A stretch of 57,809 bases of DNA from Candidatus Micrarchaeota archaeon. Its GTDB lineage: Archaea; Micrarchaeota; Micrarchaeia; Norongarragalinales; UBA8480. Shown in pieces: positions 1,151 to 47,586 of the stretch. The translations under genes were made by a program, and so were the position numbers. Under the pieces are notes generated by a model. The model had not been told where the DNA came from. It ran no database searches and was given only the letters and a program-made list of their open reading frames with translations. The stretch is taken from positions 1 to 57,809 of the forward strand of contig JAZDHP010000029.1 of the NCBI GenBank assembly GCA_043805855.1, given 5' to 3'. How positions within the stretch are numbered: the first letter of the stretch is position 1; every line of letters starts with the position of its first letter.

Positions 1151-1399
1151 ATGCAGCAAAATGTTGATTTTACAGTTAGGCTAAAAGGCGAAAGCGCAAG
1201 TGTGTTGAACAAACTCGTTAACCAAGGATATTGCGGCTCTAAAACAGAAGCAGTGAGAACAGCGTTGATTAGCTACGCGTTAAAACTCGGTGTTATTTCT
1301 CCAAATGAGTTGTTCAGAAAAACAGCAGAACGGGTAAGTAAAAAGGGATACACTGACGACGAAATAAAAGCACAAATAGCTTCAATTAGGTCAAAATGA
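1151..1399 (+). CDS. antitoxin-like small protein (VapB-type partner)
   Basis: 82 aa with AAGGTGG just upstream. Its stop overlaps the start of the PIN gene (ATGA). Confidence 0.55.
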   Translation: MQQNVDFTVRLKGESASVLNKLVNQGYCGSKTEAVRTALISYALKLGVISPNELFRKTAERVSKKGYTDDEIKAQIASIRSK

Positions 1400-1815
1400 A
1401 AATATTTCTAGACACAAGTGTATTCATATGGGCTTACAACCATCCTAAAAGCAATTCAGCACAGATCTTTAAACTAGCAAACAACAAGCAAATAGAAGCC
1501 GCGATAAGCGAAAACGTCTTAATAGAACTAAAAAGGTATTTCGGCACTTATCATGATGAACGAACAGTATACGAAGTAGAGGCGCTAATAACTGAAAAAT
1601 ATGAAATAATTCCAAAGCAACAAATTGAAGCAGAAATGCAAAAGTGGCACGGTAAAATAAAAGAAAAAGACTTGGAACATCTTGCAACAGTAAAACACTT
1701 GAAAATTGATACGCTTGTTGCGTTTGACCGCGACTACGAACCGTTTCCAGAATACATTACGCCAAAACAATTCTTGAAAAAACTTGGAATAAAAACAAGT
1801 GAAACGGAATATTAA
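1396..1815 (+). CDS. PIN-domain toxin (VapC-like)
   Basis: N-terminal IFLDTSVFI with the conserved Asp, plus a late acidic residue (AFDRD). Translationally coupled to the upstream small gene. Confidence 0.7.
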   Translation: MKIFLDTSVFIWAYNHPKSNSAQIFKLANNKQIEAAISENVLIELKRYFGTYHDERTVYEVEALITEKYEIIPKQQIEAEMQKWHGKIKEKDLEHLATVKHLKIDTLVAFDRDYEPFPEYITPKQFLKKLGIKTSETEY

Positions 1816-3634: not shown

Positions 3635-3755
3635 GTGATAGCAGCAGCGTCTTTTCCCGTTTTGAAAAACAGTACTTGGGCCGCCGTTAGAGTGCTTGAC
3701 TTCCAGGTTCGAAATGGGACTGGGTATTACCACTCTCCTATGACCGCTATCGCTA
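3635..3755 (-). rRNA. rrf: 5S rRNA (orphan, not in an rRNA operon)
   Basis: The reverse complement contains CCCAGTCCCATTTCGAACCTGGAAGTCAAGC, matching the conserved 5S CCCATCCCGAAC..GGAAGTTAAGC block. The termini pair (GATAGCGG / CTGCTATC). Ends are good to about +/-5 nt. Confidence 0.8.
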
Positions 3756-3806: not shown

Positions 3807-4667
3807 ATGACTAGTTATATGCGCCGTGTAGAACCCGGAAAAAGTGTTATACTTCCAGAAAGTGGACGAGCGTATCGTAAGATTGTCCCGCGTCAAAAAG
3901 GCGCGTTTAACGTTTATACCTTTGCTCCCGGGCTCAGGACAATTATTAGAAGAAGATTTGAAAGACAATTATTTAATGCAGATTGGGAGTTAAAGGAAGA
4001 TTTGTCAACTCGTTCAAGCAGTGCGGGTACTTTCAAGTACACAAACGGTACAAATGAGCTACTTTTGCGGCCGGCGGTTAAACTAGAATTTTTGAAATTA
4101 TACCATCGACTGTACGCCGCTAGGGTGCGTTTTGAAGAACCAGTTGCTTTTTCAATCGCTGGAAATAAAGGCGAGTTAATAACCCGCATAAAAAATCAGA
4201 AAGAAGCAGCAAGTAGCGCACAGTTTAATCAAAATGAAGCGTTCGGAAAACAAACAGCGAGGCGCATTTTTTACGAGCTAGGCAAAATGCACGGCGCCGG
4301 CGTAGCTCACGGCCATCCTCACCTCGCTAATATTTTACTTGACGAAAAAGGCAACGTTACTTTAATTGACCCAAAGTTTCTATGCAATATAAACGCGAAG
4401 AGTTCACCACAATTAAACACCATTTTCCCACGCAGAGCCATACAACTGGCTCAAACAATCAGCGGAAAGGTATCTCTTAACAAAACCCGCGACATTGCGC
4501 GGCTTCTAATGGAGTTAAACGCTGAAGAAACCATGCGAGGCGTGAAGCGCACTTGGGGAATAAAAACAACCGTTGAATTAAAAGAAGCTGCAGCAGCGTA
4601 CAATAAAGGAGTAAAAGAAGGCAAACGCAAAACACGTTGGCTACGCGCAACGGATTGGCTACAGTAG
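3807..4667 (+). CDS. kinase-fold (RIO/Bud32/Kdo-like) protein with an atypical catalytic loop
   Basis: MHGAGVAHGHPHLANILLDEKGNVTLIDPKF matches the HxDxxxxN...ID kinase core, but His replaces the catalytic Asp. Paralogous to 22547..23341. Confidence 0.55.
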   Translation: MTSYMRRVEPGKSVILPESGRAYRKIVPRQKGAFNVYTFAPGLRTIIRRRFERQLFNADWELKEDLSTRSSSAGTFKYTNGTNELLLRPAVKLEFLKLYHRLYAARVRFEEPVAFSIAGNKGELITRIKNQKEAASSAQFNQNEAFGKQTARRIFYELGKMHGAGVAHGHPHLANILLDEKGNVTLIDPKFLCNINAKSSPQLNTIFPRRAIQLAQTISGKVSLNKTRDIARLLMELNAEETMRGVKRTWGIKTTVELKEAAAAYNKGVKEGKRKTRWLRATDWLQ

Positions 4668-4733
4668 CGAAAGTGAAAAAAGTAAAGCTAAAATAAGAGA
4701 AAAAAGTAAAATAAAAGAAAAAGGTATTCAAAA

Positions 4734-5024
4734 CTACATCATGTAGCCGCGGAGTAACTCAACTGCTCTCTTGATGCTTTGTTCGATTTGCTTTTCGCTT
4801 TTGGCACCTGAGCAGATTACTTTACCGTTCTTAAACAGTAACAGCGTTGTGCCTAGTTCCTTTAGCCTCATTATAGCGCCAGGGAACTGTTCTGGCTCGT
4901 ATTCAACGTTGTCAACTTCCATTGCAATGTTAAAAAGGTCAAGCTCCACCTGGAGATTAGCTGATGCGACTATGTTTTCAACTTTAAACGAACAGTTAAT
5001 TCTCTTTTTAAATTTCTTAGCCAT
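4734..5024 (-). CDS. single-repeat TATA-box-binding-protein domain protein (half-TBP)
   Basis: VENIVASANL..LDL...EYEPEQFPGAIMRL....LLLFKNGKVICSGAKSE matches one TBP repeat (closest to repeat 2), but the protein is only 96 aa. Two TATA-like boxes and AAAGGTG lie upstream. Confidence 0.8.
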   Translation of the reverse strand: MAKKFKKRINCSFKVENIVASANLQVELDLFNIAMEVDNVEYEPEQFPGAIMRLKELGTTLLLFKNGKVICSGAKSEKQIEQSIKRAVELLRGYMM

Positions 5025-5081
5025 AGTGGATACACCTTTTAAAACTAGGCGTCGAGGGTATTTAAAGGCGGTATATAAAGC

Positions 5082-5438
5082 CTACACCACAAGCAGCATC
5101 ATTATGATGAAAATTGCGAATAGCATGTAGCTTTGTGCCGCGATTCCCGCAACTGAACGCGACAACCAAACTAATGCGATTCCAAACACAGCTAGTCCAA
5201 CTAGGCCGCCGCCAATTGCGCCGACGAAAAAGCTAAGCAATACACCTAGCAATTGGGAAATTATCATGAGAAAGCCGGAGAATAAAAGCGTTGGAATGGC
5301 GAATATTGCCGCTGCAGCGGACAAGCCCTGCATATACATTAACACGAACATGAAAACGAGAAAGCCCAGGGCTACGTTAACTACATTAACCTCAGCAGGT
5401 GCACTCATGTACTTACTACCACTGAATAATAGTAACAA
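5082..5438 (-). CDS. small integral membrane protein
   Basis: 118 aa, hydrophobic almost throughout (3-4 predicted TM segments). Confidence 0.55.
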   Translation of the reverse strand: MLLLFSGSKYMSAPAEVNVVNVALGFLVFMFVLMYMQGLSAAAAIFAIPTLLFSGFLMIISQLLGVLLSFFVGAIGGGLVGLAVFGIALVWLSRSVAGIAAQSYMLFAIFIIMMLLVV

Positions 5439-5471
5439 AGTGGTTTTTAAGGATTTTGGTGGCTTTAAACG

Positions 5472-5861
5472 CTATTTACGAGTAAGCTGCGCCCTAATAG
5501 CTTCGTTTAACTTGCGCCGATCCTGCGCACCAAGTCTATTTGTACGTAGTTCAAAATGCCCCTTATCAGCATACGGCGCGTAAAATAAAGTACAGTGGTT
5601 TCCGCCTTTTGTTAAATCTAACTCGGTACTTTTGTTTCTGGGTGCAACGGCAAAGCCTCGTTTTCTTAAGCCAGCATAAATGACATCCATTGCTAAACCA
5701 GTTGGTAAATCACGCACATCAAGATGCACGGTATGCACACGCGTAGTAATTACGTTAGTTGATTCAGCGGCTAATCCAAATCTTTTCAAAATACCATAAT
5801 GGGCGCTTCTTAATCCAGCGCCCTGTTCACCGAGAAAATTAACAATTTCGTGCATTGACAT
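5472..5861 (-). CDS. hypothetical protein
   Basis: 129-aa ORF with an ATG start and no family motif recognised. Confidence 0.5.
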   Translation of the reverse strand: MSMHEIVNFLGEQGAGLRSAHYGILKRFGLAAESTNVITTRVHTVHLDVRDLPTGLAMDVIYAGLRKRGFAVAPRNKSTELDLTKGGNHCTLFYAPYADKGHFELRTNRLGAQDRRKLNEAIRAQLTRK

Positions 5862-6050: not shown

Positions 6051-6317
6051 ATGAAGAGGAGTCACGGATATTTATCAAAGCACAGCAGGAAGCTAGGTTC
6101 CGGCAGGAAGACAATTCCCCAGTTGCTGCGCGTTTTCGACGTCGGGGCAAATGTCAGGATAAAAGTTGACGGCGCAAGTGCAAAGGTGCCAATGCGCTTT
6201 AACGGCAGGATTGTCAAAATAACTGCAAGGCAAGGAAAAGGCTACGTTGTTGAATTTAAAGATCTCAACAAGACAAAGAAATTAACCTTGATGCCAATGC
6301 ACTTGGCAACAGTTTAA
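6051..6317 (+). CDS. rpl21e: 50S ribosomal protein L21e
   Basis: MKRSHGY..SKHSRKL and the SH3-like body. First gene of the conserved archaeal rpl21e-rpoF-DUF655-ksgA order. Confidence 0.85.
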   Translation: MKRSHGYLSKHSRKLGSGRKTIPQLLRVFDVGANVRIKVDGASAKVPMRFNGRIVKITARQGKGYVVEFKDLNKTKKLTLMPMHLATV

Positions 6318-6335
6318 AAAAAGGTGGAAGAAAAA

Positions 6336-6794
6336 ATGCAAGTTATTACTGAAAAAATAATCACTGTAAACGAAGCGCACGCGTTGTTAAAGGAAAGGCA
6401 AAAACAAGGAAACTTGTCCTACGAACAGCAAAACACACTAAATTATTTTGAAGACTTGCTAAAAATAGACGACAAAGACGCTGCGAAGATGGTTAAGGAG
6501 TTAATGGACGCTGGCTTAACTCAATGGCAAGCTGTAAAAGTAACTGATTTGCTTCCAAAGAAAGAAGAGGAGCTAAAGGCAATACTCGCTGGAAGCGGCG
6601 CAATTGACGCAAGTAAATTAAAAAGTGCTTTTGAAATTGTTAAGAGTTACCGCAAAGACTCAAAGGAACCTGCAAAAACTAGAAAAATAGAACCGACTAA
6701 ACAAGAAGCAGCACCTGAAGGAGAACAAACTGCAGCAGCAAAACAAGAAGCAGACAGTAATGACGGCGAACCAACTGCAAAAGAAGGAGAATAA
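6336..6794 (+). CDS. rpoF: DNA-directed RNA polymerase subunit F (Rpo4)
   Basis: Rpb4/RpoF-like helical body at the expected position after rpl21e. GGTGG lies 8 nt before the ATG at 6336. Acidic low-complexity C-terminal tail. Confidence 0.75.
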   Translation: MQVITEKIITVNEAHALLKERQKQGNLSYEQQNTLNYFEDLLKIDDKDAAKMVKELMDAGLTQWQAVKVTDLLPKKEEELKAILAGSGAIDASKLKSAFEIVKSYRKDSKEPAKTRKIEPTKQEAAPEGEQTAAAKQEADSNDGEPTAKEGE

Positions 6795-6853
6795 GTAAAT
6801 TTTTATGTTACAAGAACAAAAAGAAGTAGTAAGAGAAATGGAAAGTGTTTGTA

Positions 6854-7438
6854 ATGATTCCAAGGAAAGAAGAATTTGTAATTGTGCTGGACTTTTTGCC
6901 ACACGGCAAGTCAAGCGAAGCAATGAAAGAACCAGTTGCACAAGTACTTGGAGAGTTCAACTTCACGCTGCTTGAAGTTGTAACAAGACCAATTCTGCCA
7001 ATAGAGTCAAAGCAACGCATTTACATTGGCAAAGACGAACGCAAAGAAGTTGACCACATTAAAGGCAGAATTGAATACAATCAACTTACTTCCAATGCAC
7101 AGGCTAATTTACACGACGCAGTGCACAGCGTAATTTTACAAAGAGAAGCTGATTTTGTCGCTTTTATCAACCGAGCTGGGCCAATTAGCATACGCAGCCA
7201 CATGCTTGAATTACTCCCTGGAATTGGAAAGAAACACTTAGATGCAATCATGGCAGCGCGCAGTGCAAAGCCGTTTGAAAACTTCAAGGATTTCCACGAG
7301 CGAGTAGCCCACGTTACTAGCATTGATGAGGTATTTACGCAAAGGATAATTGAAGAATTGAAGGGAGAGAGCAAGTACCACTTATTTACAAAGAGTCCAA
7401 AGCGCGAAGATGAACGAGAAGAAAGACAGTGGCGCTAA
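6854..7438 (+). CDS. DUF655-family HhH nucleic-acid-binding protein
   Basis: EEFVIVLDFLPHGK... N-terminus and the C-terminal LELLPGIGKKHLDAI helix-hairpin-helix. Conserved neighbour of rpoF and ksgA. Confidence 0.7.
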   Translation: MIPRKEEFVIVLDFLPHGKSSEAMKEPVAQVLGEFNFTLLEVVTRPILPIESKQRIYIGKDERKEVDHIKGRIEYNQLTSNAQANLHDAVHSVILQREADFVAFINRAGPISIRSHMLELLPGIGKKHLDAIMAARSAKPFENFKDFHERVAHVTSIDEVFTQRIIEELKGESKYHLFTKSPKREDEREERQWR

Positions 7439-8166
7439 TGAGCGAAATAACGCCGCGTAAAGAACTCGGACAAAACTTCTTGACAAGCGAAGAAATTGCA
7501 ATTCAAATAGCGGAGCTCGTACCAACAAAAGGAAAAGTGTTAGAAATCGGCCCGGGCTTAGGCGCGTTGACAGAACACCTTGCGAAAAGAGTAAGCGATT
7601 TAACTGTTGTTGAAATTGACCCGCAATTGATAGAGATACTTCATAGGAAGTTGCCAGCAAGTGTTGAAATAATTCACAACAACTGCATGAAAGAAGATTA
7701 TTCACAATACGATGCAATTGTTGGATTACTTCCCTACAACCTTTCTTCACAGATAATTGAAAAGTTCACCGTAAGCACCGCGAAAACCGCAGTGTTTGTT
7801 ATACAAAAGGAACTAGCTGAGCGAGTTGTTGCGCCTGCCGGTACACGAGACTACTCTCGCTTCAGTGTACTGTGCCAAAACAACTGCAACTGCGAATTAA
7901 TTGAAACTTACCCACCGGAAGTATCCTGGCCAGCGCCGCAAGTGCACAGCTCACTGGTCGTAATGAAGAAAAAGAAACCAATTGCGCTTAACCAACAACT
8001 TGTAAACGCGCTGTTCCAGCACAAGAATCAAAACGTGAGAAAAGCATTGAAACACTCGCGGCATTTACTGAAAATAGATGAAACAAAAATCTCACAAACA
8101 CTACTAGAAAAGAAAGTAGTACAGTTGACAATTCAAGAGCTAAGCGAAATGGGCAAACTAATTTAG
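7438..8166 (+). CDS. ksgA: 16S rRNA (adenine1518/1519-N6)-dimethyltransferase KsgA/Dim1
   Basis: ELGQNFL, VLEIGPGLGALT and LPYN motifs. The ATG overlaps the upstream stop (TAATG). Confidence 0.85.
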   Translation: MSEITPRKELGQNFLTSEEIAIQIAELVPTKGKVLEIGPGLGALTEHLAKRVSDLTVVEIDPQLIEILHRKLPASVEIIHNNCMKEDYSQYDAIVGLLPYNLSSQIIEKFTVSTAKTAVFVIQKELAERVVAPAGTRDYSRFSVLCQNNCNCELIETYPPEVSWPAPQVHSSLVVMKKKKPIALNQQLVNALFQHKNQNVRKALKHSRHLLKIDETKISQTLLEKKVVQLTIQELSEMGKLI

Positions 8167-10181
8167 AAAACTACTTCGCGCAGTTTATCTTTAATTTTAA
8201 AGCTCAGCTTGCCTTTCTTTGCCGATAGAGAAGAATTGTAAACCACAATTAGCTTTTCGTTCGGCGCGATTACTTTCCTGCGCCATGTTAGCACAACACC
8301 AATAACGGTTTTTGCTTTCCGCGCTCTGGATATTGCCTTAACTTTTGCGTTCAACGGAAGAATTTCTTGCAGCACAACGTTACACATATCCTCTTTTCCA
8401 ATGTTTATCACAACTAATCTGCACTCATTTTTATTTTGTTGACCTTTCAATCGCACAATTGTCTTGCGTTGGTTTTTCAAAAACAAAAACCCACCAATTA
8501 AAAGCGCGAAAGGCAAAAAGAAAAATGGAGAAAATTCAGGAAGCGCAAAAACAGCGAACCCTGAAAAAATAGAAGGCGCCCTTCCACTTGTCGGCAAGGC
8601 ATCAATTTCACCAATAGGTTCAACAACCGCACTTGAATTATTTTCACGAGGCGACGGCGTTGGAACAACTTTTCTAACTGAGTTATTCGCCGCTAAAATA
8701 TCCGTTGGCAAAATAGAATCAAATGTTCTTACGCTCGCAACGCCTGCTGCCCCAGCGGCGCCTGAGCTGCTTGCAATACCCGAGCTAGGAATTGTAATTT
8801 CAACACGCGCAGTTTTTTGTTTTACAAATATGGAAAAATTACTTTGATTAGAAACTAAAACACTCAATTTGCCGCCGTTAATTTCAACTGGAGTTGAATT
8901 CGCTAGTAGCGTAACGTTTTCAAACGGCGACACATCTAGCTCAAATGGCAAGGCAAGCGAAGAATTTGTTGGGTTAAAAAAAGACAGTGAATAATTTAAC
9001 TCTTCACCACCATTAACTGCTGCACTAGTGTTTGTAACTTTTACGAAATCTCCATTTAACAAAAGCAAAGTACTGTTTTGGGAAACAAACTCGTTCGGAT
9101 TCGCCGCGACACTTGTGTTAAAAAGTTGAGAGAAAAATTCGCTTGCATTTTTTACAAATAGGTTTTCAACTGGCGAGTCAAGGTTAAAGTTAACTGTAAT
9201 TATAGTTGTGTTTGTTGCAGTCCAGTTGGAAAAGTTGTGCGTCGCGTTGAATGAAAAATTTAGCAAGGTATTAGAAATATTTACAACTACATTACCTATG
9301 CCGCTGAAATTATATTCTGAAGAAACAATTGAACTACTGTTAACAAAATCGCCGGTAAAGGATTGTGAAAAGTTTGCAGTTGAATTGGCGGATAGGTTTG
9401 TAAAACTTTGCGTCGGAGAAAGTAGATGCTGGAAGGACACGTTTTCAAAATCTTCGCCAGCAGGGTTGGTAATTGTTACTGTTGATTGAATTGCTTGGCT
9501 GACTTTGGAAAATTCAAGTAATTGCAACGCATTAGAGAAGCGCAGCGCAGGAAACTCAAGGCGAATAAAATAATTTCCAGTTGTACAATTCCATTGTAAG
9601 GAATTGTTTTGAAATGAAAAAGTTATGTTGTCAGTTGAACCTGTTGAGTTGATTGCATTAGTTACGCTGGCAATTGTTGCGTTTGTTGAAAATTTACAAA
9701 CTGAAGTTCCAGTAACAACCGCATTTACGGAACATAAAGTTTTGTCACCGTAAGTGCATTGCTTTGGCGCGGCGTCGAATGTAAAGGCGGGAAAGGAAAC
9801 TTTGAGAACTGCGCCACTCACTTTTGTTGCAGCATAACCTTCAAGGCTATCAACTAACAAGCGATATTTTCCTGGAGTGAGAATTCTGCTTAGGTTGTTT
9901 TCACCAAATCCAACGCTTGCAACAACTGGACAAACTGAGTTATAATATTGATAATTTGTGCACGAATAATATGCGCATTTACGCAGACGTGCGAAGTAAT
10001 TATTTCCAGGCCCTTGGCCAACATTAATCGAAGCGTTCGTGTAATTTTCTGGAATGTCAACGTCAATTGCAATTGGCTGGGACATAAAATAATACTGCGA
10101 TACTGCCCAGCAACCCATATCGCCGCCAGTGAAGTTACTAATTGCAATTTCGGCAAATAAAAGTAAAAACAGCGAAAGCAC
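8163..10181 (-). CDS. large secreted/anchored surface protein, N-glycosylation-sequon rich
   Basis: N-terminal signal-like MLSLFLLLFAEIA, dozens of N-x-S/T sequons, one C-terminal TM (FFFLPFALLIGGFLFL), then a ~110-aa cytoplasmic beta-rich tail. Confidence 0.6.
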   Translation of the reverse strand: MLSLFLLLFAEIAISNFTGGDMGCWAVSQYYFMSQPIAIDVDIPENYTNASINVGQGPGNNYFARLRKCAYYSCTNYQYYNSVCPVVASVGFGENNLSRILTPGKYRLLVDSLEGYAATKVSGAVLKVSFPAFTFDAAPKQCTYGDKTLCSVNAVVTGTSVCKFSTNATIASVTNAINSTGSTDNITFSFQNNSLQWNCTTGNYFIRLEFPALRFSNALQLLEFSKVSQAIQSTVTITNPAGEDFENVSFQHLLSPTQSFTNLSANSTANFSQSFTGDFVNSSSIVSSEYNFSGIGNVVVNISNTLLNFSFNATHNFSNWTATNTTIITVNFNLDSPVENLFVKNASEFFSQLFNTSVAANPNEFVSQNSTLLLLNGDFVKVTNTSAAVNGGEELNYSLSFFNPTNSSLALPFELDVSPFENVTLLANSTPVEINGGKLSVLVSNQSNFSIFVKQKTARVEITIPSSGIASSSGAAGAAGVASVRTFDSILPTDILAANNSVRKVVPTPSPRENNSSAVVEPIGEIDALPTSGRAPSIFSGFAVFALPEFSPFFFLPFALLIGGFLFLKNQRKTIVRLKGQQNKNECRLVVINIGKEDMCNVVLQEILPLNAKVKAISRARKAKTVIGVVLTWRRKVIAPNEKLIVVYNSSLSAKKGKLSFKIKDKLREVVF

Positions 10182-10291
10182 GTGAGAAAAAGCGTAGCTA
10201 GTGTTCTAAAGGCAAATGAGTAGAAAAAGTAGACGAAGAGAAAAATTAAAATTAAAGGAAAAAGGTCAAATTGCGGCGCCTAAATTAACTA

Positions 10292-10492
10292 TTATGTTTT
10301 TCTAATGACGCTCATTGGGATTGAATGTTTGCTGAACTCTAGCTTGGCAAATTCAACTGGAGAAGTTAAAACGTGAACGTCGCTAACCTTAGTTGCGTCT
10401 ATTAGTGGCGGAGCGCCCATTGCGAGTTGCAGCGCACGTGCACCGACAAGGCGAGCCTCTTCGTATTTAGTGTAAGTATTTTCTTTAACCAT
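10292..10492 (-). CDS. rpoK: DNA-directed RNA polymerase subunit K (Rpo6)
   Basis: TKYEEARLVGARALQLAMGAPPL is the Rpb6/RpoK signature. Confidence 0.85.
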   Translation of the reverse strand: MVKENTYTKYEEARLVGARALQLAMGAPPLIDATKVSDVHVLTSPVEFAKLEFSKHSIPMSVIRKT

Positions 10493-10630
10493 ATTTGTAA
10501 ATCACTTAGAGAACTAGTGAATAAATTCGAAAAACTGACGCTTTTAACCCTTACGATGCGAAAATTTAGCAAATTCTAGTTGGCGCCGCCTTTCATTATA
10601 ATTATATGCAAGGAAAACGTATCACATTTA

Positions 10631-19903: not shown

Positions 19904-20668
19904 ATGCACATTGACGAAGATGTCCACGATCGCCAAAAGAGAGTTAGCGGCTGGAGTCAGGAGAAAATTGCTACTTCTAATGTTGCGGTTGTCGGCGCTG
20001 GTGCTTTGGGCAACGAAGTTGTCAAGAATCTATTACAACTAGGCGTTTCCAGCATCTCGATTATTGATTATGATGTTATTGTAAAGGCTAATTTGAACCG
20101 CTGCGTGTTGTTTACAGAAGAAGACGCGGAAAACAAAGCGTTGAAAGCCGAGGTGCTTAGCCAAAGAGGTAAAAAACTCAACCTCCTTGCGAAAATAACT
20201 CCAGTTTTGAAAAACGTCGAGGAGCTGGACGATAAATTCTTCTCTCAATTCGGCTCAGTGTTCGGCTGCCTTGACAATTTAGGCGCGAGGGTACATGTAA
20301 ACGCAAATTGCTACGATTGCGTTCCGTTTATCGATGGCGGAACAAGTGGGTTCATGGGCAAAGTACAAGTCGTTGCAAAGCCGTCAGCGTGTGTTGAATG
20401 CGCGCTCTCAAAGCAAGATTATGGTTTACTGTGGAAAAAGTACTCGTGCACCGGCGATTTGCTTGATGTGATGGACCCAAAGATGCCCGCGCTGCCCACA
20501 ACGACGAGCGTAATCGCAGGAATCCAAGTAAACGAATTTCTTAAACTCCTAAACCCGCAGTTGAAAGGCAAACCTCTCGCGGGGAAATACCTTTTCTATA
20601 ATGGTTTAACCAGCGAAACGAAAATGTTCACCGCTGAAAAGAGAAAGGGCTGTCCAGCGCACGAATAG
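19904..20668 (+). CDS. E1-like ubiquitin-activating enzyme (ThiF/MoeB/UBA adenylation domain)
   Basis: VAVVGAGALGNEV (GxGxxG), ANLNRCVLF (E1 NLNRQFLF motif), CLDNLGARVHVN, two CxxC pairs (CYDC, CVEC) and a candidate catalytic Cys in KYSCTGD. Confidence 0.8.
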   Translation: MHIDEDVHDRQKRVSGWSQEKIATSNVAVVGAGALGNEVVKNLLQLGVSSISIIDYDVIVKANLNRCVLFTEEDAENKALKAEVLSQRGKKLNLLAKITPVLKNVEELDDKFFSQFGSVFGCLDNLGARVHVNANCYDCVPFIDGGTSGFMGKVQVVAKPSACVECALSKQDYGLLWKKYSCTGDLLDVMDPKMPALPTTTSVIAGIQVNEFLKLLNPQLKGKPLAGKYLFYNGLTSETKMFTAEKRKGCPAHE

Positions 20669-20727
20669 GAGAATAAGCAAATGTTAAAAACATCAAAGTT
20701 GTAATTAATAAAAGAGGTAATAATTCA

Positions 20728-21114
20728 ATGGAAAACTTGTTAAAAACTACGTTGCGTGGTGGAAAGAACCTTGGTATTGCAATTGTAGCCGGCTCTGCAA
20801 TTAGACGGCTAGTGCAAACCAAACAAGGCGAAGCAGCAGCCAAGGCACTAAAACAACACTTGCGTCCCGGGCTATACTCACTTAAAGTGAATGAAGGCGC
20901 AACGCACGCGGTTTTCACAACGGAAACCACAATAATAAAACCTTTCCCAGGTGCAAGAGAAAGGCCTGGAACAATTGTACGCATTCAACTAGTTGCGCTC
21001 CCTAAACACGAAGGTAAAGTTGTGAAATTACCATTCGGAGGAGTGCGCTATCCAATAACAGAAAAACGCATAGAAAGGCCAAAAGGCAAAGTAACAGAAA
21101 GGCCGCGCAGGTAA
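20728..21114 (+). CDS. hypothetical protein in the ubiquitin-like cluster
   Basis: 128-aa ORF directly after the E1-like gene, basic C-terminus. No motif recognised. Confidence 0.45.
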   Translation: MENLLKTTLRGGKNLGIAIVAGSAIRRLVQTKQGEAAAKALKQHLRPGLYSLKVNEGATHAVFTTETTIIKPFPGARERPGTIVRIQLVALPKHEGKVVKLPFGGVRYPITEKRIERPKGKVTERPRR

Positions 21115-21115
21115 G

Positions 21116-22093
21116 CTATTCAAACGCGTCTTTTATTTCGTTTATCACGTCACGGCTACGTTTGTCAATGATTAGCAATAGTTTTTTACCGCAGCGTATG
21201 CACTGTGCATTGCCGTCTAGTAGAGAATCGTAGCATTCTTTATGGTAAGCTGCGCCGCAAAAACAGTGGCCGTACTTTGACAATGCTGAATCAGAAACTG
21301 CGAGTTTAAACTGAGATTTGCACAAGTCACACGCTTCCCCGTTACCGTTGCTTCCATTACTTTCATTTTGGTGTAAAGGTTGAGGTGGAACTGATTGTGA
21401 AGAAGCGACCCTTGTTTTAACAGGCTCTTGAATTATAGTGTGCGGCATTCTCACTTGTACTCGCAGTGGCTCTCCAGTTGCTTTATGTTGTAAGAAGCGT
21501 TGCCGCTGTTCTGGCGACGGACCGTAGCGTTTCATTATCTCTTCCAAATCCATTTTTCCAAGTTTACCGCCAAGGTCAACAACTTCTGTAGTTGAAAGAA
21601 AGTCTTTAACGTGTTTTTGCCCCTCACTTTCAACAACAGTTGGTTTCCTTGCAACAAACGGATGTTTTTGCAGCTTAACTTCGCCAGTAAAAGTTTTCTT
21701 TAAGCTAACTTTTTTCGCACCTTTTCCAGCGTAAAAATTATAACCTTTTATTGTTAAACCAAAAACTCCACTATCTTCTGCAACGAGTTGTTCGGTTTTC
21801 AAAACGTTTAGTTGAGTCATTAACTCGCTACGCGCGACGCCGAGTTGTAAAAGTAAATCATCTGGATTTCCAGTACCTTCGCGAATTAAGTGCAATAAAT
21901 CTCTGTCAAACTGCGTTTGTTTAAACGCCAGTTTGCGTGGTTGGCGCTTTTTCTTCTCTTCTTTTTGCTCTTTCTTTTCTTCTTTTCTATCTTCCTTTTT
22001 GTCTTCTCTTTTAGCTTCCTTGGCTTCTTTTTGAACCGACGTAGCTGCCGCTGGCTTTTCTTCTCTCGCCATTATTGGTTTTTCAGCGTTCAC
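21116..22093 (-). CDS. Lys/Glu-rich + winged-helix + C-terminal C4HC3 (RING-variant/PHD-like) zinc-finger protein, candidate E3
   Basis: The C-terminus CDLC-x16-CFC-x4-H-x2-C-x10-C-x2-C fits a cross-brace C4HC3 finger. The start overlaps the JAMM gene stop by 4 nt. Confidence 0.6.
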
Positions 22094-22539
22094 TTTATCA
22101 CCGCAAATGAAACTTCTCCGTATGAATTACCAGCCAAGCGATAAAAACGCTTTGCCATTACTTTACCCGCGCCAAAATCATCAGAAGCTAGCGGATCAAA
22201 TACTGCGGCAACGTGGAATTGCTCGTTGAAAAAACGACGTTGGGTAGAAACATCAGTTGTTGAAAGAAAACACCCGTAGCCAGGGTGCGAGTGGCACCAG
22301 CCGACAACTATTTCGCCACTTTTTTGCAACTCTTCGGCAATTTTTTCAAACGCGTTTGGAGAAAAGCGAACCGAAACAGCTGAAGAATCAGTTTCGCTTG
22401 TAATAAATTCATTCACAACAACGAAATTCTTCCCTTTGTGCTCGCAAACTTCTCCCATGAGAAGGCCCATTCCTTCCAAGTGAAGCGACGCCAATTGCGA
22501 AAAGTACTCCTCTGCTTTTTGCACTGCGGTTTGCTTCAT
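22090..22539 (-). CDS. JAB1/MPN/JAMM metalloprotease (Rpn11-like deubiquitinase candidate)
   Basis: [17 protein letters not shown] is an exact HxHx7Sx2D JAMM motif, with an upstream Glu in LLMGEV. ATG at 22539; an alternative GTG at 22566 is possible. Confidence 0.85.
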
Positions 22540-22546
22540 GTACACT

Positions 22547-23341
22547 TCAAGCGCCACACTTAGCACCTTTTAGTTTTCTTGCTAAACGTTTAACTCGTTG
22601 CCACTTGGTTAGCTTTGGAACATGCCGAACAATAGTATCAGGATGCACAAGAGTGTGTTTGTAAACCTCGCGGAGAGCTTTTTCAAAATTTCTCACCTCT
22701 CGCTGTGGAAATTCATCAACGCGAAGTAGTGAGTTAATTGCTTCTATTGCAATTCGCAAATCTCTTTCAGGTGTAACCATATGGTGTGTTTCTCGTAGTA
22801 ACGTCGGGTCAATCAACTGCACTGAACCATTAACATTTCTAACTGCATTTCTAGTACCTGGATGCGTGTGCACGAAACCAAGAGCGTGTAACTTAGCAAG
22901 TTGGCGAACAAACTCAAAACTAGCTCTAATCCTATCTCTCCTCGGGATTGTTGAATCGGAAAGGTAGCTATTAAGCGGGCGAGAGTCTTTCTTCCATAAG
23001 GTAACTAAAAGGCGGCGGCCGTCGGGCTGTTCAATAAACGCAACTGGCATTTCAACCAACGCGCGCTGAGAAGCAGCTAATGTCTGTAAACGATTAAATA
23101 TATTAGTTGGCGGAAAATAGGCGTTAACGTCTGACGAAACCCCGCCAACTGCGCAGTTTCTAACGGCAAGTTGATGCCTGCCAAATTGGTGAATGGTTAA
23201 AGCCGGAACTGTTCCAAAAATAACCCACTCAGGGGTTTTCAGCGCGGCTAGTAACTCGCGTGGGTTGTGCTTCTTCCAGTGCGTGACCCCAACTTCTCCT
23301 TCAGGGGTTTGAATTTTGTGCGTTTCCCATTCAAGCGGCAA
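22547..23341 (-). CDS. kinase-fold protein, atypical catalytic loop (paralog B)
   Basis: [30 protein letters not shown] parallels 3807..4667. Apparent TTG start one nt after the upstream stop. Confidence 0.55.
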
Positions 23342-23342
23342 A

Positions 23343-23633
23343 TTATTTCAACCCCAGCGCGTCTTTAAAGTCTCCAGTTAACCCTCGGCGCTTTCGCCTG
23401 TCTCGTTTAATCTTTTCCATTACATCTGGATCAACATTTAACGGAGAAAATGGAGGTTGGGAAGGAATAGCATCGCGCAGCTGCTGTTTACGCAGTTCAG
23501 CAACAACATCAACTGGAACAATCTGGGAAAATGCTTCAGCTTGCTCATCGATATTCTCAACTGGCTCAATTTGTTTAATTATCTTCGGCTTCGCTGGCGG
23601 CTTTTTAACTTCAACAACGCGGGGTTTTGACAT
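23343..23633 (-). CDS. small basic hypothetical protein
   Basis: 96 aa, Lys/Pro-rich N-terminus and RKRR near the C-terminus. Sits between the two kinase-fold genes in the same operon. Confidence 0.45.
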   Translation of the reverse strand: MSKPRVVEVKKPPAKPKIIKQIEPVENIDEQAEAFSQIVPVDVVAELRKQQLRDAIPSQPPFSPLNVDPDVMEKIKRDRRKRRGLTGDFKDALGLK

Positions 23634-23684
23634 AAAGAAAAAAGGAAGGCTAAGTTAAAAAAAGCATAAGTGCATTCAACGAAA

Positions 23685-24425
23685 TTAAACTATTCCTTCC
23701 CGCGCTATTCTTTGGTTTTCCGCTTCGATTCTTATCGCCTTTACCATTTTCTTAAAGTACTTTTTAACAGCAGGATGTTCCCAACGATTAACGTCGATAA
23801 CATTAGCGCCTCGTCGGTTGCCAATTAGATTTCTTACATTTGTATCGCTAGTTGTAAACCCAGCATTGCGAGCACGTTGAAGCAAACCTACGCTTAAGTC
23901 AACAATCTCTCCCTTGCATTTCTCTCTTACTACTCTTTTAGTCACAACCGCCCGACGGCCATCTTGATAGTAAATAATCGCTTGAGGAACCTCAGCGTTT
24001 ACTTTGACGCTCTTCAAACCAAGCAACAAACGCGCTTCTTTAGTTGCTTGCGCTTCAATCGTCTTTACTTTACCTGGAGAAAAAACAACCTCGCGGCTAG
24101 AAGCATAATCCCGCCACCAAGGTTGACCCAAAACAAACGACCGCTCTGGCTCTTTTACAAACAAAGACGTCGGCTTAAGATTAGACAACGTTTGAACGTG
24201 TACAACTGAACGCATGTTTCCTCGTCGAGTATATCCGCGCCAATTTTCAGGCATTAAATGCTCGTGAGGAACACTACAAGTTGGCAAAATAACAACGCGA
24301 TGCCCCGCAGGAGTGTGCAAAACCTCTAGTCTTGAAAGTCTTCGCACTTTTGTAGGTTCTTGAAGTTCAGTCATTGCAAGAATAATTCGCGTGGCAAGGC
24401 ATAATAAATTTCCGGCTGTAACCAT
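23685..24425 (-). CDS. kinase-fold protein (paralog C, retains Asp in the catalytic loop)
   Basis: PQAIIYYQDGRRAVVTK and ARNAGFTTSDTNVRNLIGNRRGANVIDVN parallel [17 protein letters not shown] and the [10 protein letters not shown]...LIDP of paralog B. The real start may be the Met at 24374, leaving room for a divergent promoter. Confidence 0.5.
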   Translation of the reverse strand: MVTAGNLLCLATRIILAMTELQEPTKVRRLSRLEVLHTPAGHRVVILPTCSVPHEHLMPENWRGYTRRGNMRSVVHVQTLSNLKPTSLFVKEPERSFVLGQPWWRDYASSREVVFSPGKVKTIEAQATKEARLLLGLKSVKVNAEVPQAIIYYQDGRRAVVTKRVVREKCKGEIVDLSVGLLQRARNAGFTTSDTNVRNLIGNRRGANVIDVNRWEHPAVKKYFKKMVKAIRIEAENQRIAREGIV

Positions 24426-24443
24426 TAGCGAGGCGAATAGAAC

Positions 24444-24689
24444 ATGGCAGAGTTTAACATTAAAGTTTCACACACGACAAGCGGAAAAGAAATAACCCTA
24501 GCAGTTGAACCAGAATTCACCGTACAATCAGTTTTGGATGTGCTAGTTGACTCCCTACAACTAAAAGACCGCTTCGTGTTGGCAAAAGCTTCTGACAACA
24601 AAATCCTAACGCCAGAAATCACAATGAACGACGCAGGCGTAAAAGAAGGCGAAACGCTACTACTGATGCCTGATCCTACTGGCGGCTAA
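24444..24689 (+). CDS. ubiquitin-like beta-grasp modifier ending in Gly-Gly-stop
   Basis: 81 aa with alternating beta-grasp-like hydrophobic pattern. The C-terminus ...LLLMPDPTGG is followed directly by TAA, so no processing is needed. Immediately upstream of the E2. Confidence 0.75.
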   Translation: MAEFNIKVSHTTSGKEITLAVEPEFTVQSVLDVLVDSLQLKDRFVLAKASDNKILTPEITMNDAGVKEGETLLLMPDPTGG

Positions 24690-24728
24690 AAAAATAGAAA
24701 TATAAAACAGAAAAGGCGAAAAACAACA

Positions 24729-25196
24729 ATGCCAAAATTACCTGAGTCAATTTGGCGTCGTAGAATAGACAATGAATATGCAGAACTTAGCCGCAATTTA
24801 AAAATTGCAAACCTAGAGGCAAACAGCGACAAAACAGAATATCACTTTACCTTAAACGCTACCGCGTACAAGAAAAACGGAACTGCAATTGTTCCAGTTA
24901 GCATGCACAACGTTTCAATTTACTTAACGCGGGAATACCCGTACGCTGGCGGGATTGAAGTCATATGGGATAGTGATATTTTTCATCCTAACATCCGCGC
25001 TAAAGACGGCGCAGTTTGCATTCAAGTGTTAAACCACTGGAGTGAATCGCAAACACTGTCAAGTGTCGTTGACGCGCTTGTACAAATGTTGGAAAATCCA
25101 AACCCCTACTCGCCGTTGAACAGTGAAGCCGCGAAATACTTCGCTAATTACATCCCGCAGAAAACTGAACCTGGAAAACCGAGAGTGGTTGTTTGA
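24729..25196 (+). CDS. E2 ubiquitin-conjugating enzyme (UBC fold)
   Basis: YPYAGGIEVIWDSDIFHPNIRAKDGAVCIQVLNHWSESQTL contains the HPN motif, the catalytic Cys and the conserved Trp. NPNPYSPLNSEAAKYF follows. Confidence 0.85.
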   Translation: MPKLPESIWRRRIDNEYAELSRNLKIANLEANSDKTEYHFTLNATAYKKNGTAIVPVSMHNVSIYLTREYPYAGGIEVIWDSDIFHPNIRAKDGAVCIQVLNHWSESQTLSSVVDALVQMLENPNPYSPLNSEAAKYFANYIPQKTEPGKPRVVV

Positions 25197-25855
25197 ACGA
25201 AACCACTGAACAAAAACCTGAAAAATTCCAATTAGCAAAATTTGCATCGCGAGCTGAACAAAGAAAATCTTTGAGAAAAGGAAAACTAGCTTTTAAAATA
25301 AACGGAAAAGTTGTTGCAATTGGTTTAACAAACGGACCAACCCCAATTGACCATCGTTCGCTTGTAGCAGTTTTGCACGATAGCGCGGGAAATTACCTTA
25401 TACTTCGCCGAGATCAATATGACACCCTTACAGTTCATTTACCGATGCAAAAAAAAGGAGACCGCGAGAAACAAATTGGAACCTTTAACCTACGCTTCAT
25501 TGACCGCTGGCTTGATCCGGAATTTAGAAGAAGAGGAATCGCGACACACGCTTTGAAATGTATAGAAAAATTACATGCCGCATACTATGGCGGCGGGCCT
25601 AACGTATTTGGAACTGTAAAACGCAGCACGGCGCTATTCTTAGCTAAGCGCGCACATTATGTAGAAGAGGAAAGCGGGCTAACCTTAGCGCAAATTAGAC
25701 GAAGTGGAGAGGAGCTACCGCGGATGGTTTACTTTAAGCCAAAACCAACTAAGCCAGCGTTTACAAAACAAGATCTTGAACAAAACCATGTACTAGTAGT
25801 AGCTGGCCATAGCGGCAAGCGAGAATGGTATGTATTGCCAAGGCGAGAGAAATGA
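25193..25855 (+). CDS. hypothetical protein, possible GNAT-fold acetyltransferase
   Basis: WLDPEFRRRGIATHALKCIEK resembles GNAT motif A (Q/R-x-x-G-x-G/A). TTG start overlaps the E2 stop by 4 nt. Confidence 0.4.
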   Translation: MNETTEQKPEKFQLAKFASRAEQRKSLRKGKLAFKINGKVVAIGLTNGPTPIDHRSLVAVLHDSAGNYLILRRDQYDTLTVHLPMQKKGDREKQIGTFNLRFIDRWLDPEFRRRGIATHALKCIEKLHAAYYGGGPNVFGTVKRSTALFLAKRAHYVEEESGLTLAQIRRSGEELPRMVYFKPKPTKPAFTKQDLEQNHVLVVAGHSGKREWYVLPRREK

Positions 25856-31717: not shown

Positions 31718-32404
31718 CTATGCTTTAAGAGAAAATTGAGGTTTAAGCGTACTAGAATCAACCAAGCCGCTTAATGTTGTAATTTTTCTTTCAAGCTTCT
31801 GTAGTTCTTCATCTTGGTCAACTGAATTTAACTTACCTCTACAACTTGGACAGCGAAAACTATTTTCAACAGCTTTTTCAAATTCAAAACAACCGCAGTT
31901 TTTAGTACAACGGTAAACTTGCCCGCCCTCTCCCCGCGCTAATTGTACGCGAAGTTGTTCGTACTCGCGTTTCTTTGAATTCAAAAAGTTTTGCAACGCG
32001 CGGTTTGTGTTTAGCTTCCAGGTATAAGTAAACCAACCTGTTTGCAAGTTTTTCTCGCGGCTATACTCAACCAACCCATAACTATGCAAGTGGTTTAACA
32101 CAGAACGAATCTCAGCAATTTTCATCTTTGTATTCTGTTCTATCTTATCATCAGTAGTTCCGCAGTCGCCCATGCAAGAAACAATTTTCAAACCCTCTTC
32201 TCCCGCAACTTCACGCACAAATTCATTAACATGATCAACAGTAACCCGTGGCAACTGGGGAGAAGTCTCTTTTTTTGGGGTTAGTTGTTTCTTTGCGAAA
32301 CTTTTAGGCAAGATTTTTTGCGCCTCGCTTTTAATTATGTAGAGTGATTTTAAATAACCCTTCGCTCCTGAAAAATACATGGAACCCAGATGCGAACAAC
32401 GCAT
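31718..32404 (-). CDS. tfe: transcription factor E alpha (TFE) with an N-terminal extension
   Basis: wH region (EGLKIVSCM..TDDKIEQNT..IAEIRSVLNHLHSYGLVEY) followed by the zinc ribbon YRCTKNCGCFEF...FRCPSCRGKL. The start (32404 or the Met at 32380) is uncertain. Confidence 0.7.
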   Translation of the reverse strand: MRCSHLGSMYFSGAKGYLKSLYIIKSEAQKILPKSFAKKQLTPKKETSPQLPRVTVDHVNEFVREVAGEEGLKIVSCMGDCGTTDDKIEQNTKMKIAEIRSVLNHLHSYGLVEYSREKNLQTGWFTYTWKLNTNRALQNFLNSKKREYEQLRVQLARGEGGQVYRCTKNCGCFEFEKAVENSFRCPSCRGKLNSVDQDEELQKLERKITTLSGLVDSSTLKPQFSLKA

Positions 32405-32450
32405 ACGCTGAGAAAATTATAACTATTCTAAACCAGAAAAGTTATTCGCG

Positions 32451-47513: not shown

Positions 47514-47586
47514 TTTTTCCATCACCTTTAAACCAGAAGCCACGAGAACGGGCATTTTCGGTAAAAGGCCCCTCCGCGGCCTTCAG

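What the first reader, a model, noticed from the sequence alone, without database searches (positions are those of the whole stretch)
4734..5024. Stand-alone single-repeat TBP (half-TBP)
Canonical archaeal and eukaryotic TBP is a tandem duplication of about 180 aa. This 96-aa ORF encodes exactly one repeat with the strongly conserved block EYEPEQFPGAIMRL...LLLFKNGKVICSGAKSE, and it has its own TATA-like boxes and SD. A single-repeat TBP would have to homodimerise to form the saddle, which resembles the inferred pre-duplication ancestor. It could instead act as a decoy or regulator of a full-length TBP encoded elsewhere.
Basis: partly seen in the sequence, partly recalled or inferred. Interest (0 to 1): 0.65.

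Follow-up and report, generated by a model that had tools for sequence, protein, structure and literature searches.

The report
Single-lobe TATA-binding protein gene
This DPANN archaeon (Micrarchaeota) encodes a conserved 96-residue protein that is just one half of the normally two-lobed TATA-binding protein, in the genomic place where relatives carry the full gene, so it probably works as a homodimer and gives a natural test of how TBP worked before its internal duplication.

Summary
Window 4734-5024 (-) is a 96-aa ORF with one complete TBP domain (Pfam E 2e-28). There is no room for, and no trace of, a second repeat.

It is a real gene, not an artefact. More than 100 protein clusters of 91-116 aa at 79-95% identity exist in Micrarchaeota metagenome bins, on contigs up to 876 kb. 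Nineteen genome assemblies of Micrarchaeota and Iainarchaeota carry complete single-lobe TBP genes of several diverged lineages.

In the window and in many relatives the gene lies divergently next to L21e-RpoF-DUF655-KsgA. Other Micrarchaeota carry a two-lobe tbp at that same position, so the half-TBP is a positional orthologue of tbp. It keeps both DNA-kinking phenylalanines and the acidic TFB-binding stirrup, and it models as one TBP lobe (pLDDT 90).

Best reading (about 0.65): it is the cell's general TBP, acting as a homodimer, with TFB/BRE setting promoter direction. Dimerisation, DNA binding and the absence of another TBP elsewhere in the genome are not shown.

It cannot be assigned to the N or the C lobe. 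Two-lobe relatives have unusually similar lobes (up to 75%), which hints at repeated re-duplication or gene conversion.

Single-lobe TBP-domain proteins are already published, but this canonical, tbp-replacing DPANN form was not found in the literature I searched.

The parts
4734..5024 (-). Coding sequence of the single-lobe TBP (96 aa; the TAG stop at 4736-4734 is included).
   Evidence: one PF00352 domain covering residues 12-92. AlphaFold2 model with pLDDT 90.4, superposing on one lobe of solved TBPs at about 1.0 A rmsd.
5059..5079 (-). Two TATA-like boxes upstream of the gene: TTTATATA at 5079-5072 and TTTAAATA at 5066-5059. This is the candidate promoter.
   Evidence: Read from the sequence. 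TTTAAA-type hexamers are 5.2-fold enriched in the 80 nt upstream of the window's genes, with 7 of 18 lying at -25 to -33. Function is inferred.
5033..5044 (-). TTTTAAAA followed by GGTG (5036-5033), a Shine-Dalgarno-like motif 8 nt before the ATG.
   Evidence: Read from the sequence. Function is inferred.
4672..4733 (-). T-rich tract downstream of the stop, with several runs of 4-6 T. Probable archaeal oligo-T terminator. It fills the whole gap to the convergent ORF, so there is no room for a second repeat.
   Evidence: Read from the sequence. tblastn finds no TBP-like remnant there.
6051..8166 (+). Divergently transcribed conserved cluster L21e (6051-6317), RpoF/Rpb4 (6324-6794), DUF655 (6845-7438) and KsgA (7429-8166). 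It is the synteny anchor that identifies the locus as the tbp locus of the clade.
   Evidence: Pfam hits. The same cluster lies divergently next to single-lobe tbp in L002-L004, L009, L015, L029, L033, L036 and L049, and next to two-lobe tbp in L005, L010, L012-L014, L016, L018, L021, L023, L035 and L041.
5082..5861 (-). Two small lineage-specific ORFs between tbp and the L21e cluster: a 118-aa hydrophobic protein (5082-5438) and a 129-aa protein (5472-5861).
   Evidence: No Pfam or NCBIfam hit. No tblastn match in related loci.

Best explanation
The gene encodes the organism's general TATA-binding protein in single-lobe form. Each 96-aa chain folds as one TBP lobe. Two chains are proposed to pair through their S1 strands into the ten-stranded saddle that a normal TBP makes from its two fused lobes. 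The homodimer would bind and kink a TATA box; near-palindromic TTTAAA-type boxes are common in this genome. Because both stirrups of such a dimer are identical, promoter direction would be set entirely by TFB reading the BRE on one side, as is already largely the case in archaea.

Shown here: one complete, canonical TBP domain; the predicted lobe fold; conservation of the residues that contact DNA and TFB; strong purifying selection; wide occurrence in Micrarchaeota and Iainarchaeota; and positional orthology with the two-lobe tbp of relatives.

Inferred, not shown: dimerisation, DNA binding, TFB recruitment, and that no other TBP is encoded elsewhere in this genome.
For: (1) Domain and fold. 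PF00352 matches at E 2.3e-28 over the full domain. Identity to both lobes of solved archaeal TBPs is 40-46%. The AF2 model has pLDDT 90.4, and its top 44 PDB matches are all TBPs at about 1 A rmsd over 77-86 residues.

(2) Functional residues are invariant across the alignments. These are N17 and V19 in S1, F47 in EQFPG, and F64 in LLLFKNGK. F47 and F64 are the counterparts of yeast F99/F190 and F116/F207. R53, K68 and S72 are also conserved. E43-P44-E45 matches the acidic stirrup positions C.L3.2 and C.L3.4 that bind TFB/TFIIB (PMC7221094).

(3) It is a real, selected gene. There are 766 homologues, and most of the top 120 are 91-116 aa at 79-95% identity, on contigs up to 876 kb. Nineteen assemblies carry complete single-lobe ORFs ending in various stop codons. 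WIN-type proteins are 86-93% identical between genomes whose neighbouring DUF655 is only 46-50% identical.

(4) Positional orthology. The same divergent L21e-RpoF-DUF655-KsgA neighbourhood flanks single-lobe and two-lobe tbp genes across the clade.

(5) No sign of a second TBP. None is found in the 57.8-kb window. None lies within +/-10 kb of the gene in any of the 19 assemblies. All 80 best genome loci come from different assemblies. No large contig length is shared between the listed half-TBPs and the listed two-lobe TBPs.

(6) The rest of the basal machinery is ordinary. TFE-alpha and RpoF are in the window. TTTAAA is 5-fold enriched upstream of genes and peaks at -25 to -33.
Against: The whole genome is not available, so a two-lobe TBP or a second single-lobe gene elsewhere is not excluded. 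The tbp/L21e synteny is absent in some WIN-type genomes: L001, the 876-kb contig of GCA_041643055.1 and the 452-kb contig. No dimer model, binding data or expression data exist. There is precedent for single-lobe TBP-domain proteins that coexist with a full TBP, in Thermococcales and as halobacterial TbpA (PMC3597702).
Confidence: 0.65

Rival explanations
1. Accessory paralogue. The genome also has a normal two-lobe TBP elsewhere, and the single-lobe protein acts as a regulator. It could be a decoy for TFB or TATA boxes, a cap on the TBP DNA-binding surface, or a condition-specific alternative factor.
For: Known single-lobe TBP-domain proteins coexist with full TBPs, in Thermococcales and as TbpA in Halobacteria (PMC3597702). 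The rest of this genome was not available. The genome scan was truncated.
Against: The gene sits at the tbp position of relatives. It is far more conserved than its neighbours. It keeps every DNA-contact and TFB-contact residue. No assembly among the 80 best loci has two TBP loci. No contig length is shared with the listed two-lobe TBPs. Small DPANN genomes seldom keep paralogous basal factors (general knowledge).
Confidence: 0.15
2. Split gene. The saddle is a heterodimer of this protein with a second, different single-lobe TBP encoded at another locus.
For: Split genes are known in some DPANN archaea (general knowledge). Several diverged single-lobe lineages exist.
Against: Every diverged single-lobe lineage found comes from a different assembly. 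The protein shows no N-lobe or C-lobe specialisation, scoring -0.1 to -3.6 bits on a test where N lobes average +5.7 and C lobes -7.8. It carries the TFB-binding stirrup itself. No second copy is in the window.
Confidence: 0.08
3. A nucleic-acid-binding protein with a role outside transcription initiation, such as a chromatin or repair accessory, as with the TBP-like domains of RNase HIII and DNA glycosylases.
For: The TBP fold is used in other contexts (PMC3597702). Some single-lobe relatives carry Lys/Ala-rich tails (L008 and P0194).
Against: Sequence identity to bona fide TBP lobes is 40-60%, with the TBP-specific Phe pair and stirrup. RNase HIII is only a marginal structural hit (E 0.2, TM 0.36). 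The gene is a positional orthologue of tbp.
Confidence: 0.05
4. Artefact or pseudogene. A frameshift, a mis-assembly or a decaying remnant removed the second repeat.
For: One related locus (L038) does look like a frameshifted two-lobe gene.
Against: The same architecture appears in more than 100 independent protein clusters and 19 assemblies with clean stops. No remnant lies in the 57-nt and 66-nt flanks. Purifying selection is extreme.
Confidence: 0.02

Closest known systems
Canonical archaeal TBP (two fused lobes, about 180 aa; for example M. jannaschii 2Z8U, S. acidocaldarius 1MP9, P. woesei 1AIS)
   Same: It has the same domain family and predicted lobe fold, the same Phe pair, Asn/Val contacts in S1 and EYEPEQFPG stirrup, and the same genomic position as tbp in related Micrarchaeota.
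   Different: It has one lobe per chain, no inter-lobe linker and no acidic C-terminal tail. It scores far below every NCBIfam TBP whole-protein cut-off, 61-87 bits against 181-347, and is therefore mostly labelled 'hypothetical protein' in public records. A functional saddle would need two chains and would be perfectly symmetric.
Monopartite TBP-domain proteins of Thermococcales (Brindefalk et al. 2013, PMC3597702; for example P. furiosus NP_578195, 96 aa)
   Same: They are stand-alone proteins of about 95 aa made of a single TBP domain, in archaea.
   Different: They are reported as only distantly related to the TBPs of their own genomes and as coexisting with a full TBP. The protein here is canonical in sequence, 45-60% identical to real lobes, and sits at the tbp locus. 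It also comes from a different phylum (DPANN).
Halobacterial TbpA (single TBP-domain member of the multi-TBP family; PMC3597702)
   Same: It is a single TBP domain with a sequence close to genuine TBP lobes.
   Different: TbpA is one of several TBP paralogues in genomes that also have full-length TBPs, and it is reported as non-essential. Here no paralogue was seen, and the gene is conserved across a whole clade at the tbp position.
[quoted passage not shown] 2020 (PMC7221094)
   Same: The architecture may be the same.
   Different: That paper gives one sentence in its methods, with no taxa, context or function. DPANN, Micrarchaeota and Iainarchaeota do not occur in its text or in the supplements held here.

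Membership tests
TBP (Pfam PF00352 domain family) | Significant full-length match to the TBP domain profile. | tested here: met
   E 2.3e-28, 98.3 bits (cut-off 22.9), profile positions 1-83 of 85. E 9e-38 to solved archaeal TBPs.
TBP (canonical general transcription factor) | Two tandem TBP repeats in one polypeptide of about 180 aa. | tested here: not met
   One domain in 96 aa. No second repeat in the flanks or anywhere in the window. The same holds in 19 related assemblies.
TBP (canonical general transcription factor) | Passes NCBIfam TBP whole-protein cut-offs (NF001592-NF001601). | tested here: not met
   61-87 bits against cut-offs of 181-347. Each match covers half of each model.
TBP (canonical general transcription factor) | TBP lobe fold: five-stranded sheet plus two helices. 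| tested here: met
   pLDDT 90.4, with strands and helices in the TBP order; the top 44 PDB hits are all TBPs, TM (query-normalised) 0.76-0.83, rmsd about 1.0-1.8 A.
TBP (canonical general transcription factor) | DNA-kinking phenylalanine pair and minor-groove contact residues in the lobe. | tested here: met
   F47, F64, N17 and V19 are invariant, and R53, K68 and S72 are conserved. The mapping to yeast F99/F116, N69/V71 and T124 is by alignment plus established knowledge of TBP-DNA structures.
TBP (canonical general transcription factor) | Acidic stirrup residues that bind TFB/TFIIB (C.L3.2 and C.L3.4). | tested here: met
   E43-P44-E45 within the invariant EYEPEQFPG motif. The role of these positions is taken from PMC7221094.
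TBP (canonical general transcription factor) | Orthology with tbp of related genomes. | tested here: met
   The gene shares a divergent L21e-RpoF-DUF655-KsgA neighbourhood with the two-lobe tbp genes of other Micrarchaeota. This synteny is not conserved in every WIN-type genome.
TBP (canonical general transcription factor) | Binds and bends TATA DNA and recruits TFB and RNA polymerase. | not testable with these tools
   This needs biochemistry.
Thermococcales-type monopartite TBP-domain proteins (PMC3597702) | Single TBP domain of about 95 aa. | tested here: met
Thermococcales-type monopartite TBP-domain proteins (PMC3597702) | Strongly diverged from genuine TBP lobes, forming a separate sequence cluster. 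| tested here: not met
   Identity to real lobes is 40-62%. All TBP-specific motifs are intact.
Thermococcales-type monopartite TBP-domain proteins / halobacterial TbpA | Coexists with a full-length TBP in the same genome. | tested here: inconclusive
   No second TBP in the window, in +/-10 kb of 19 loci, or among the 80 best genome loci. Whole genomes could not be scanned.

The most novel reading that the evidence does not exclude
In the Micrarchaeota-Iainarchaeota clade the working TBP is, or ancestrally was, a homodimer of single lobes, and the two-lobe tbp genes found in parts of the clade arose several times by independent tandem re-duplication of that single-lobe gene. This would be a living example, and natural replays, of the duplication that created TBP before the archaeal-eukaryotic split. 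The evidence that does not exclude it is as follows. The single-lobe protein cannot be assigned to N or C. All N, C and single lobes of the clade group together against outgroup lobes in 79% of bootstraps. Own-N plus own-C clades are favoured (33-44%) over cross-group N-N or C-C clades (0-6%, with one pair at 36%). Intramolecular lobe identity reaches 75%, against a 39% archaeal mean. Synonymous-site similarity between lobes is elevated.
Probability: 0.3. Interest if true: 0.85.

Novelty: new variant of a known kind. Interest (0 to 1): 0.68.

Why it matters
TBP is used in every archaeal and eukaryotic transcription initiation event, and its two-lobe pseudo-symmetry is the textbook case of an ancient internal duplication. 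The presumed homodimeric precursor has only been inferred.

A clade in which a canonical single lobe apparently replaces the fused protein makes three questions directly testable with natural proteins:
- Can a symmetric homodimeric TBP support oriented initiation with TFB/BRE alone?
- What does fusion of the lobes add?
- How often do fusion and fission of the lobes occur?

It also has a practical side. These genes fall below the annotation cut-offs and are mostly labelled 'hypothetical protein'. Genome surveys can therefore wrongly score such DPANN genomes as lacking TBP.

Tried and rejected
- A single-sequence AlphaFold2 run gave an unusable model (pLDDT 49.8). It was replaced by a run with a 35-sequence alignment.
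- An exact-sequence look-up of the window protein found no record.
- Assignment to the N or C lobe with cross-validated lobe-specific HMMs was inconclusive. The half scores between the two distributions.
- A Biopython bootstrap timed out. It was redone with a numpy neighbour-joining routine. Deep nodes stay unsupported with 81 columns, so the direction of change (loss versus re-duplication) was not decided.
It therefore cannot prove that genomes with the half-TBP lack another TBP.
- A 'contig-length fingerprint' comparison between listed half-TBPs and listed two-lobe TBPs found no shared contig. Only 120 of 7841 two-lobe hits were visible, so this is a weak test.
- Eight literature searches found single-lobe TBP reports only for Euryarchaeota, plus one passing remark, and nothing on DPANN. 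Subscription-only papers are outside the library.
- The idea that the basic N-terminal tail is a relic of the inter-lobe linker was dropped. Two-lobe relatives such as P0033 have the same kind of leader at their own N terminus.

Full report
**1. The observation**

The minus-strand ORF 4734-5024 encodes a 96-aa protein: MAKKFKKRINCSFKVENIVASANLQVELDLFNIAMEVDNVEYEPEQFPGAIMRLKELGTTLLLFKNGKVICSGAKSEKQIEQSIKRAVELLRGYMM. Pfam finds one TBP domain (PF00352) at E 2.3e-28, covering profile positions 1-83 of 85. Against PDB sequences the protein matches archaeal TBPs at E about 1e-37, and it aligns about equally to both of their repeats. The scores are 66/64 bits for M. jannaschii, 68/61 for Sulfolobus and 54/66 for Pyrococcus.

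The flanks leave no room for a second repeat. There are 57 nt to the upstream membrane-protein ORF and 66 T-rich nt to the end of a convergent ORF. A tblastn of the protein against the whole 57.8-kb window at E<=100 finds nothing else credible. Two TATA-like boxes (5079-5072 and 5066-5059) and a GGTG (5036-5033) precede the ATG.

**2. A real and widespread gene**

The window is ordinary archaeal chromosome. It holds 5S rRNA, tRNA-Lys, L21e-RpoF-DUF655-KsgA, TFE-alpha, enolase, CTP synthase, RadA and PcrB.

A search of 5.8 billion proteins returned 766 homologues. Most of the best 120 are 91-116 aa single-domain proteins at 79-95% identity. Where named, they come from Candidatus Micrarchaeota, Micrarchaeia or Norongarragalinales bins, on contigs up to 876 kb. 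Most carry the label 'hypothetical protein'. That label is explained by NCBIfam: the protein scores 61-87 bits on every TBP model, against cut-offs of 181-347.

In a library clustered at 50% identity, all of these collapse into one cluster (P0018) among 5146 TBP-domain proteins. Nearly all of the best 150 listed are two-lobe proteins.

A truncated scan of one genome per GTDB species gave 80 loci from 80 different assemblies. Six-frame domain counting and ORF calling on these loci show complete single-lobe TBP genes with clean stops in 19 assemblies labelled Micrarchaeota, Iainarchaeum/Diapherotrites, 'Marsarchaeota' or Nanobdellati. They fall into several diverged lineages, 45-63% identical to the window protein. 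Only L001-L003 are of the window's type. Other Micrarchaeota, Iainarchaeota, Thermoplasmata and Woesearchaeota loci have normal two-lobe genes.

**3. Position in the genome**

In the window the gene is transcribed divergently from L21e-RpoF-DUF655-KsgA. Two small lineage-specific ORFs lie in between.

The same divergent arrangement is found next to single-lobe genes in L002, L003, L004, L009, L015, L029, L033, L036 and L049. It is also found next to two-lobe tbp genes in L005, L010, L012-L014, L016, L018, L021, L023, L035 and L041. It is absent from the Thermoplasmata and Woesearchaeota loci. The single-lobe gene is therefore a positional orthologue of tbp within this clade, not an added paralogue. 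The arrangement is not universal: L001, the 876-kb contig of GCA_041643055.1 and a 452-kb contig have other neighbours.

No locus has a second TBP gene within 10 kb, apart from L038, which looks like a frameshifted two-lobe gene.

**4. Constraint and functional residues**

Between the window, L002 and L003 the neighbouring DUF655 protein is 46-50% identical and L21e is about 40% identical. The half-TBP, by contrast, is 86-93% identical. Other half-TBP lineages and two-lobe TBPs at the same DUF655 divergence are about 58-60% identical.

Invariant positions across the alignments include N17 and V19 (S1), the whole EYEPEQFPGAI stirrup region with F47, and LLLFKNGK with F64. By alignment to yeast and archaeal TBP, F47 and F64 are the two DNA-kinking phenylalanines of a lobe. 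E43 and E45 are the acidic stirrup positions that bind TFB/TFIIB (PMC7221094).

With a 35-sequence alignment AlphaFold2 gives pLDDT 90.4. The 44 best PDB matches are all TBPs, with rmsd about 1.0 A over 77-86 residues. RNase HIII is only a marginal hit.

TTTAAA, a palindromic TATA core, is 5.2-fold enriched in the 80 nt upstream of the window's genes and clusters at -25 to -33.

**5. Most likely mechanism**

The simplest reading is that this is the cell's general TBP and that two chains form the saddle. Every chain carries a TFB-binding stirrup, so the dimer would be fully symmetric and promoter polarity would depend on TFB and the BRE. This agrees with established archaeal biology, where the BRE sets polarity.

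The following are inferred rather than shown: dimerisation, DNA bending, TFB recruitment, and the absence of another TBP-domain gene elsewhere in the genome. The indirect evidence for 'sole TBP' is threefold. There is positional orthology. Each of the 80 best loci comes from a different assembly (the scan was truncated). No large contig is shared between the listed half-TBPs and the listed two-lobe TBPs (only 120 of 7841 were visible). I give this reading about 0.65.

The rivals are an accessory or decoy paralogue (0.15), one half of a split heterodimeric TBP (0.08), a role outside transcription (0.05), and an artefact or pseudogene (0.02).

**6. Evolution**

Cross-validated lobe-specific HMMs separate archaeal N lobes (+5.7 +/- 5.4 bits) from C lobes (-7.8 +/- 5.8 bits). 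The window-type halves score -0.1 to -3.6, so they are neither.

In neighbour-joining trees of 78 lobes, shallow clades are well supported but deep nodes are not. All lobes of the Micrarchaeota/Iainarchaeota clade (N, C and single) separate from Thermoplasmata and Woesearchaeota lobes in 79% of bootstraps. A group's own N and C lobes cluster together in 33-44% of bootstraps. Cross-group N-N or C-C clades appear in 0-6%, with one pair at 36%.

The two lobes of one protein are 53-75% identical in the clade's main two-lobe groups (only L041, at 48%, falls lower), against a mean of 39% (27-56%) in 93 other archaeal TBPs. Codon identity at identical residues is 54-75% in the more symmetric members of the clade, against 29-48% in Thermoplasmata.

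On a DUF655 tree used as a rough species proxy, single-lobe and two-lobe states are interleaved. Together this points to several transitions between one-lobe and two-lobe genes, or to gene conversion between lobes. Secondary loss of a lobe remains the conservative view, because two-lobe TBP is otherwise universal in archaea and eukaryotes. Re-duplication from a single-lobe ancestor of the clade is not excluded (about 0.3).

**7. Comparison with what is known**

Single TBP-domain proteins have been described. TbpA of Halobacteria is close to TBP, is one of many paralogues and is non-essential. A divergent family of about 95 aa in Thermococcales coexists with full TBPs, and that screen found only euryarchaeal cases (PMC3597702). 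[quoted passage not shown]

None of eight full-text searches found a report of a canonical single-lobe TBP at the tbp locus of DPANN archaea. Reviews of archaeal transcription and DPANN genomics simply list TBP as present.

I therefore rate it a new variant of a known kind. It works like a TBP and belongs to the TBP domain family, but it fails the defining two-repeat architecture of the canonical factor. It also differs from the published monopartite proteins in sequence conservation and genomic role.

**8. Verdict**

Interest is fairly high (0.68). A specialist would be surprised by a lineage-wide single-lobe TBP that replaces the fused one. The finding also makes the long-standing 'homodimeric ancestor' idea experimentally testable. 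The key open point is whether these genomes encode any other TBP-domain gene.

Noticed in passing
window 19904-25855: A eukaryote-like ubiquitin-type gene cluster. It holds a ThiF/E1-like gene (19904-20668, +), a JAB/MPN deubiquitinase-like gene (22090-22566, -) and a UQ_con E2 gene (24729-25196, +). Four ORFs without Pfam hits lie among them (21116-22093, 22547-23341, 23685-24425, 25193-25855). One of these could be the modifier or a RING-type ligase.
   Followed up: no
window 45027-47555 (-): A RadA/Rad51 recombinase gene interrupted by an intein that carries a LAGLIDADG homing endonuclease (842 aa in total).
   Followed up: no
window 31718-32543: TFE-alpha (31718-32404, -) lies next to tRNA-Lys(CTT). 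ARAGORN nt (32452-32543) but Rfam matches only 32452-32516, which suggests an intron or a 3' extension in the tRNA.
   Followed up: no
window 50062-54003 (-) and 8163-10181 (-): Two large ORFs of 1313 aa and 672 aa have no Pfam hit at E<=0.001.
   Followed up: no
window 3636-3751 (-) and 3807-4667 (+): A stand-alone 5S rRNA gene lies just beyond the convergent neighbour of the half-TBP gene. That neighbour is a 286-aa protein with only weak Bud32/Kdo-kinase-like matches (Pfam E 0.007; NCBIfam Bud32 22 bits against a cut-off of 125).
   Followed up: partly
window 1396-1815, 39206-39592, 44395-44760: Three PIN-domain ORFs, likely toxin components of toxin-antitoxin pairs, are scattered through the window.
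   Followed up: no
L001-L003 and the window (half-TBP versus DUF655): The window-type half-TBP lineage is unusually frozen. It is 86-93% identical between genomes whose neighbouring DUF655 is 46-50% identical. Other half-TBP and two-lobe lineages show about 58-60% at the same divergence.
   Followed up: partly
L019, L010, L037, L014, L005 (two-lobe tbp genes at about 10001-10570): The two lobes of a single TBP are 65-75% identical, with long identical stretches and raised synonymous-site identity (for example 19 of 25 four-fold sites in L037). This suggests recent re-duplication or gene conversion between lobes.
   Followed up: partly
L008 9755-10255; P0194; P0123; P0146: Some single-lobe and two-lobe TBPs of this clade carry long Lys/Ala/Pro-rich tails that look like histone H1. 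L008 has a tail of about 65 aa made of AKKKAVKKKPA repeats at its N terminus.
   Followed up: no
proteins P0122, P0270-P0272 (three TBP repeats); P0121, P0127, P0153 (four matched stretches): Database proteins with three or four TBP repeats in one chain. P0121 is an exact tandem copy of a eukaryotic TBP core and may be an assembly artefact. The three-repeat archaeal ones may be real.
   Followed up: no
L038 9941-10643: A two-lobe tbp whose second lobe is split across two reading frames. This is a probable frameshift or sequencing error, or a gene caught in the act of losing a lobe.
   Followed up: no
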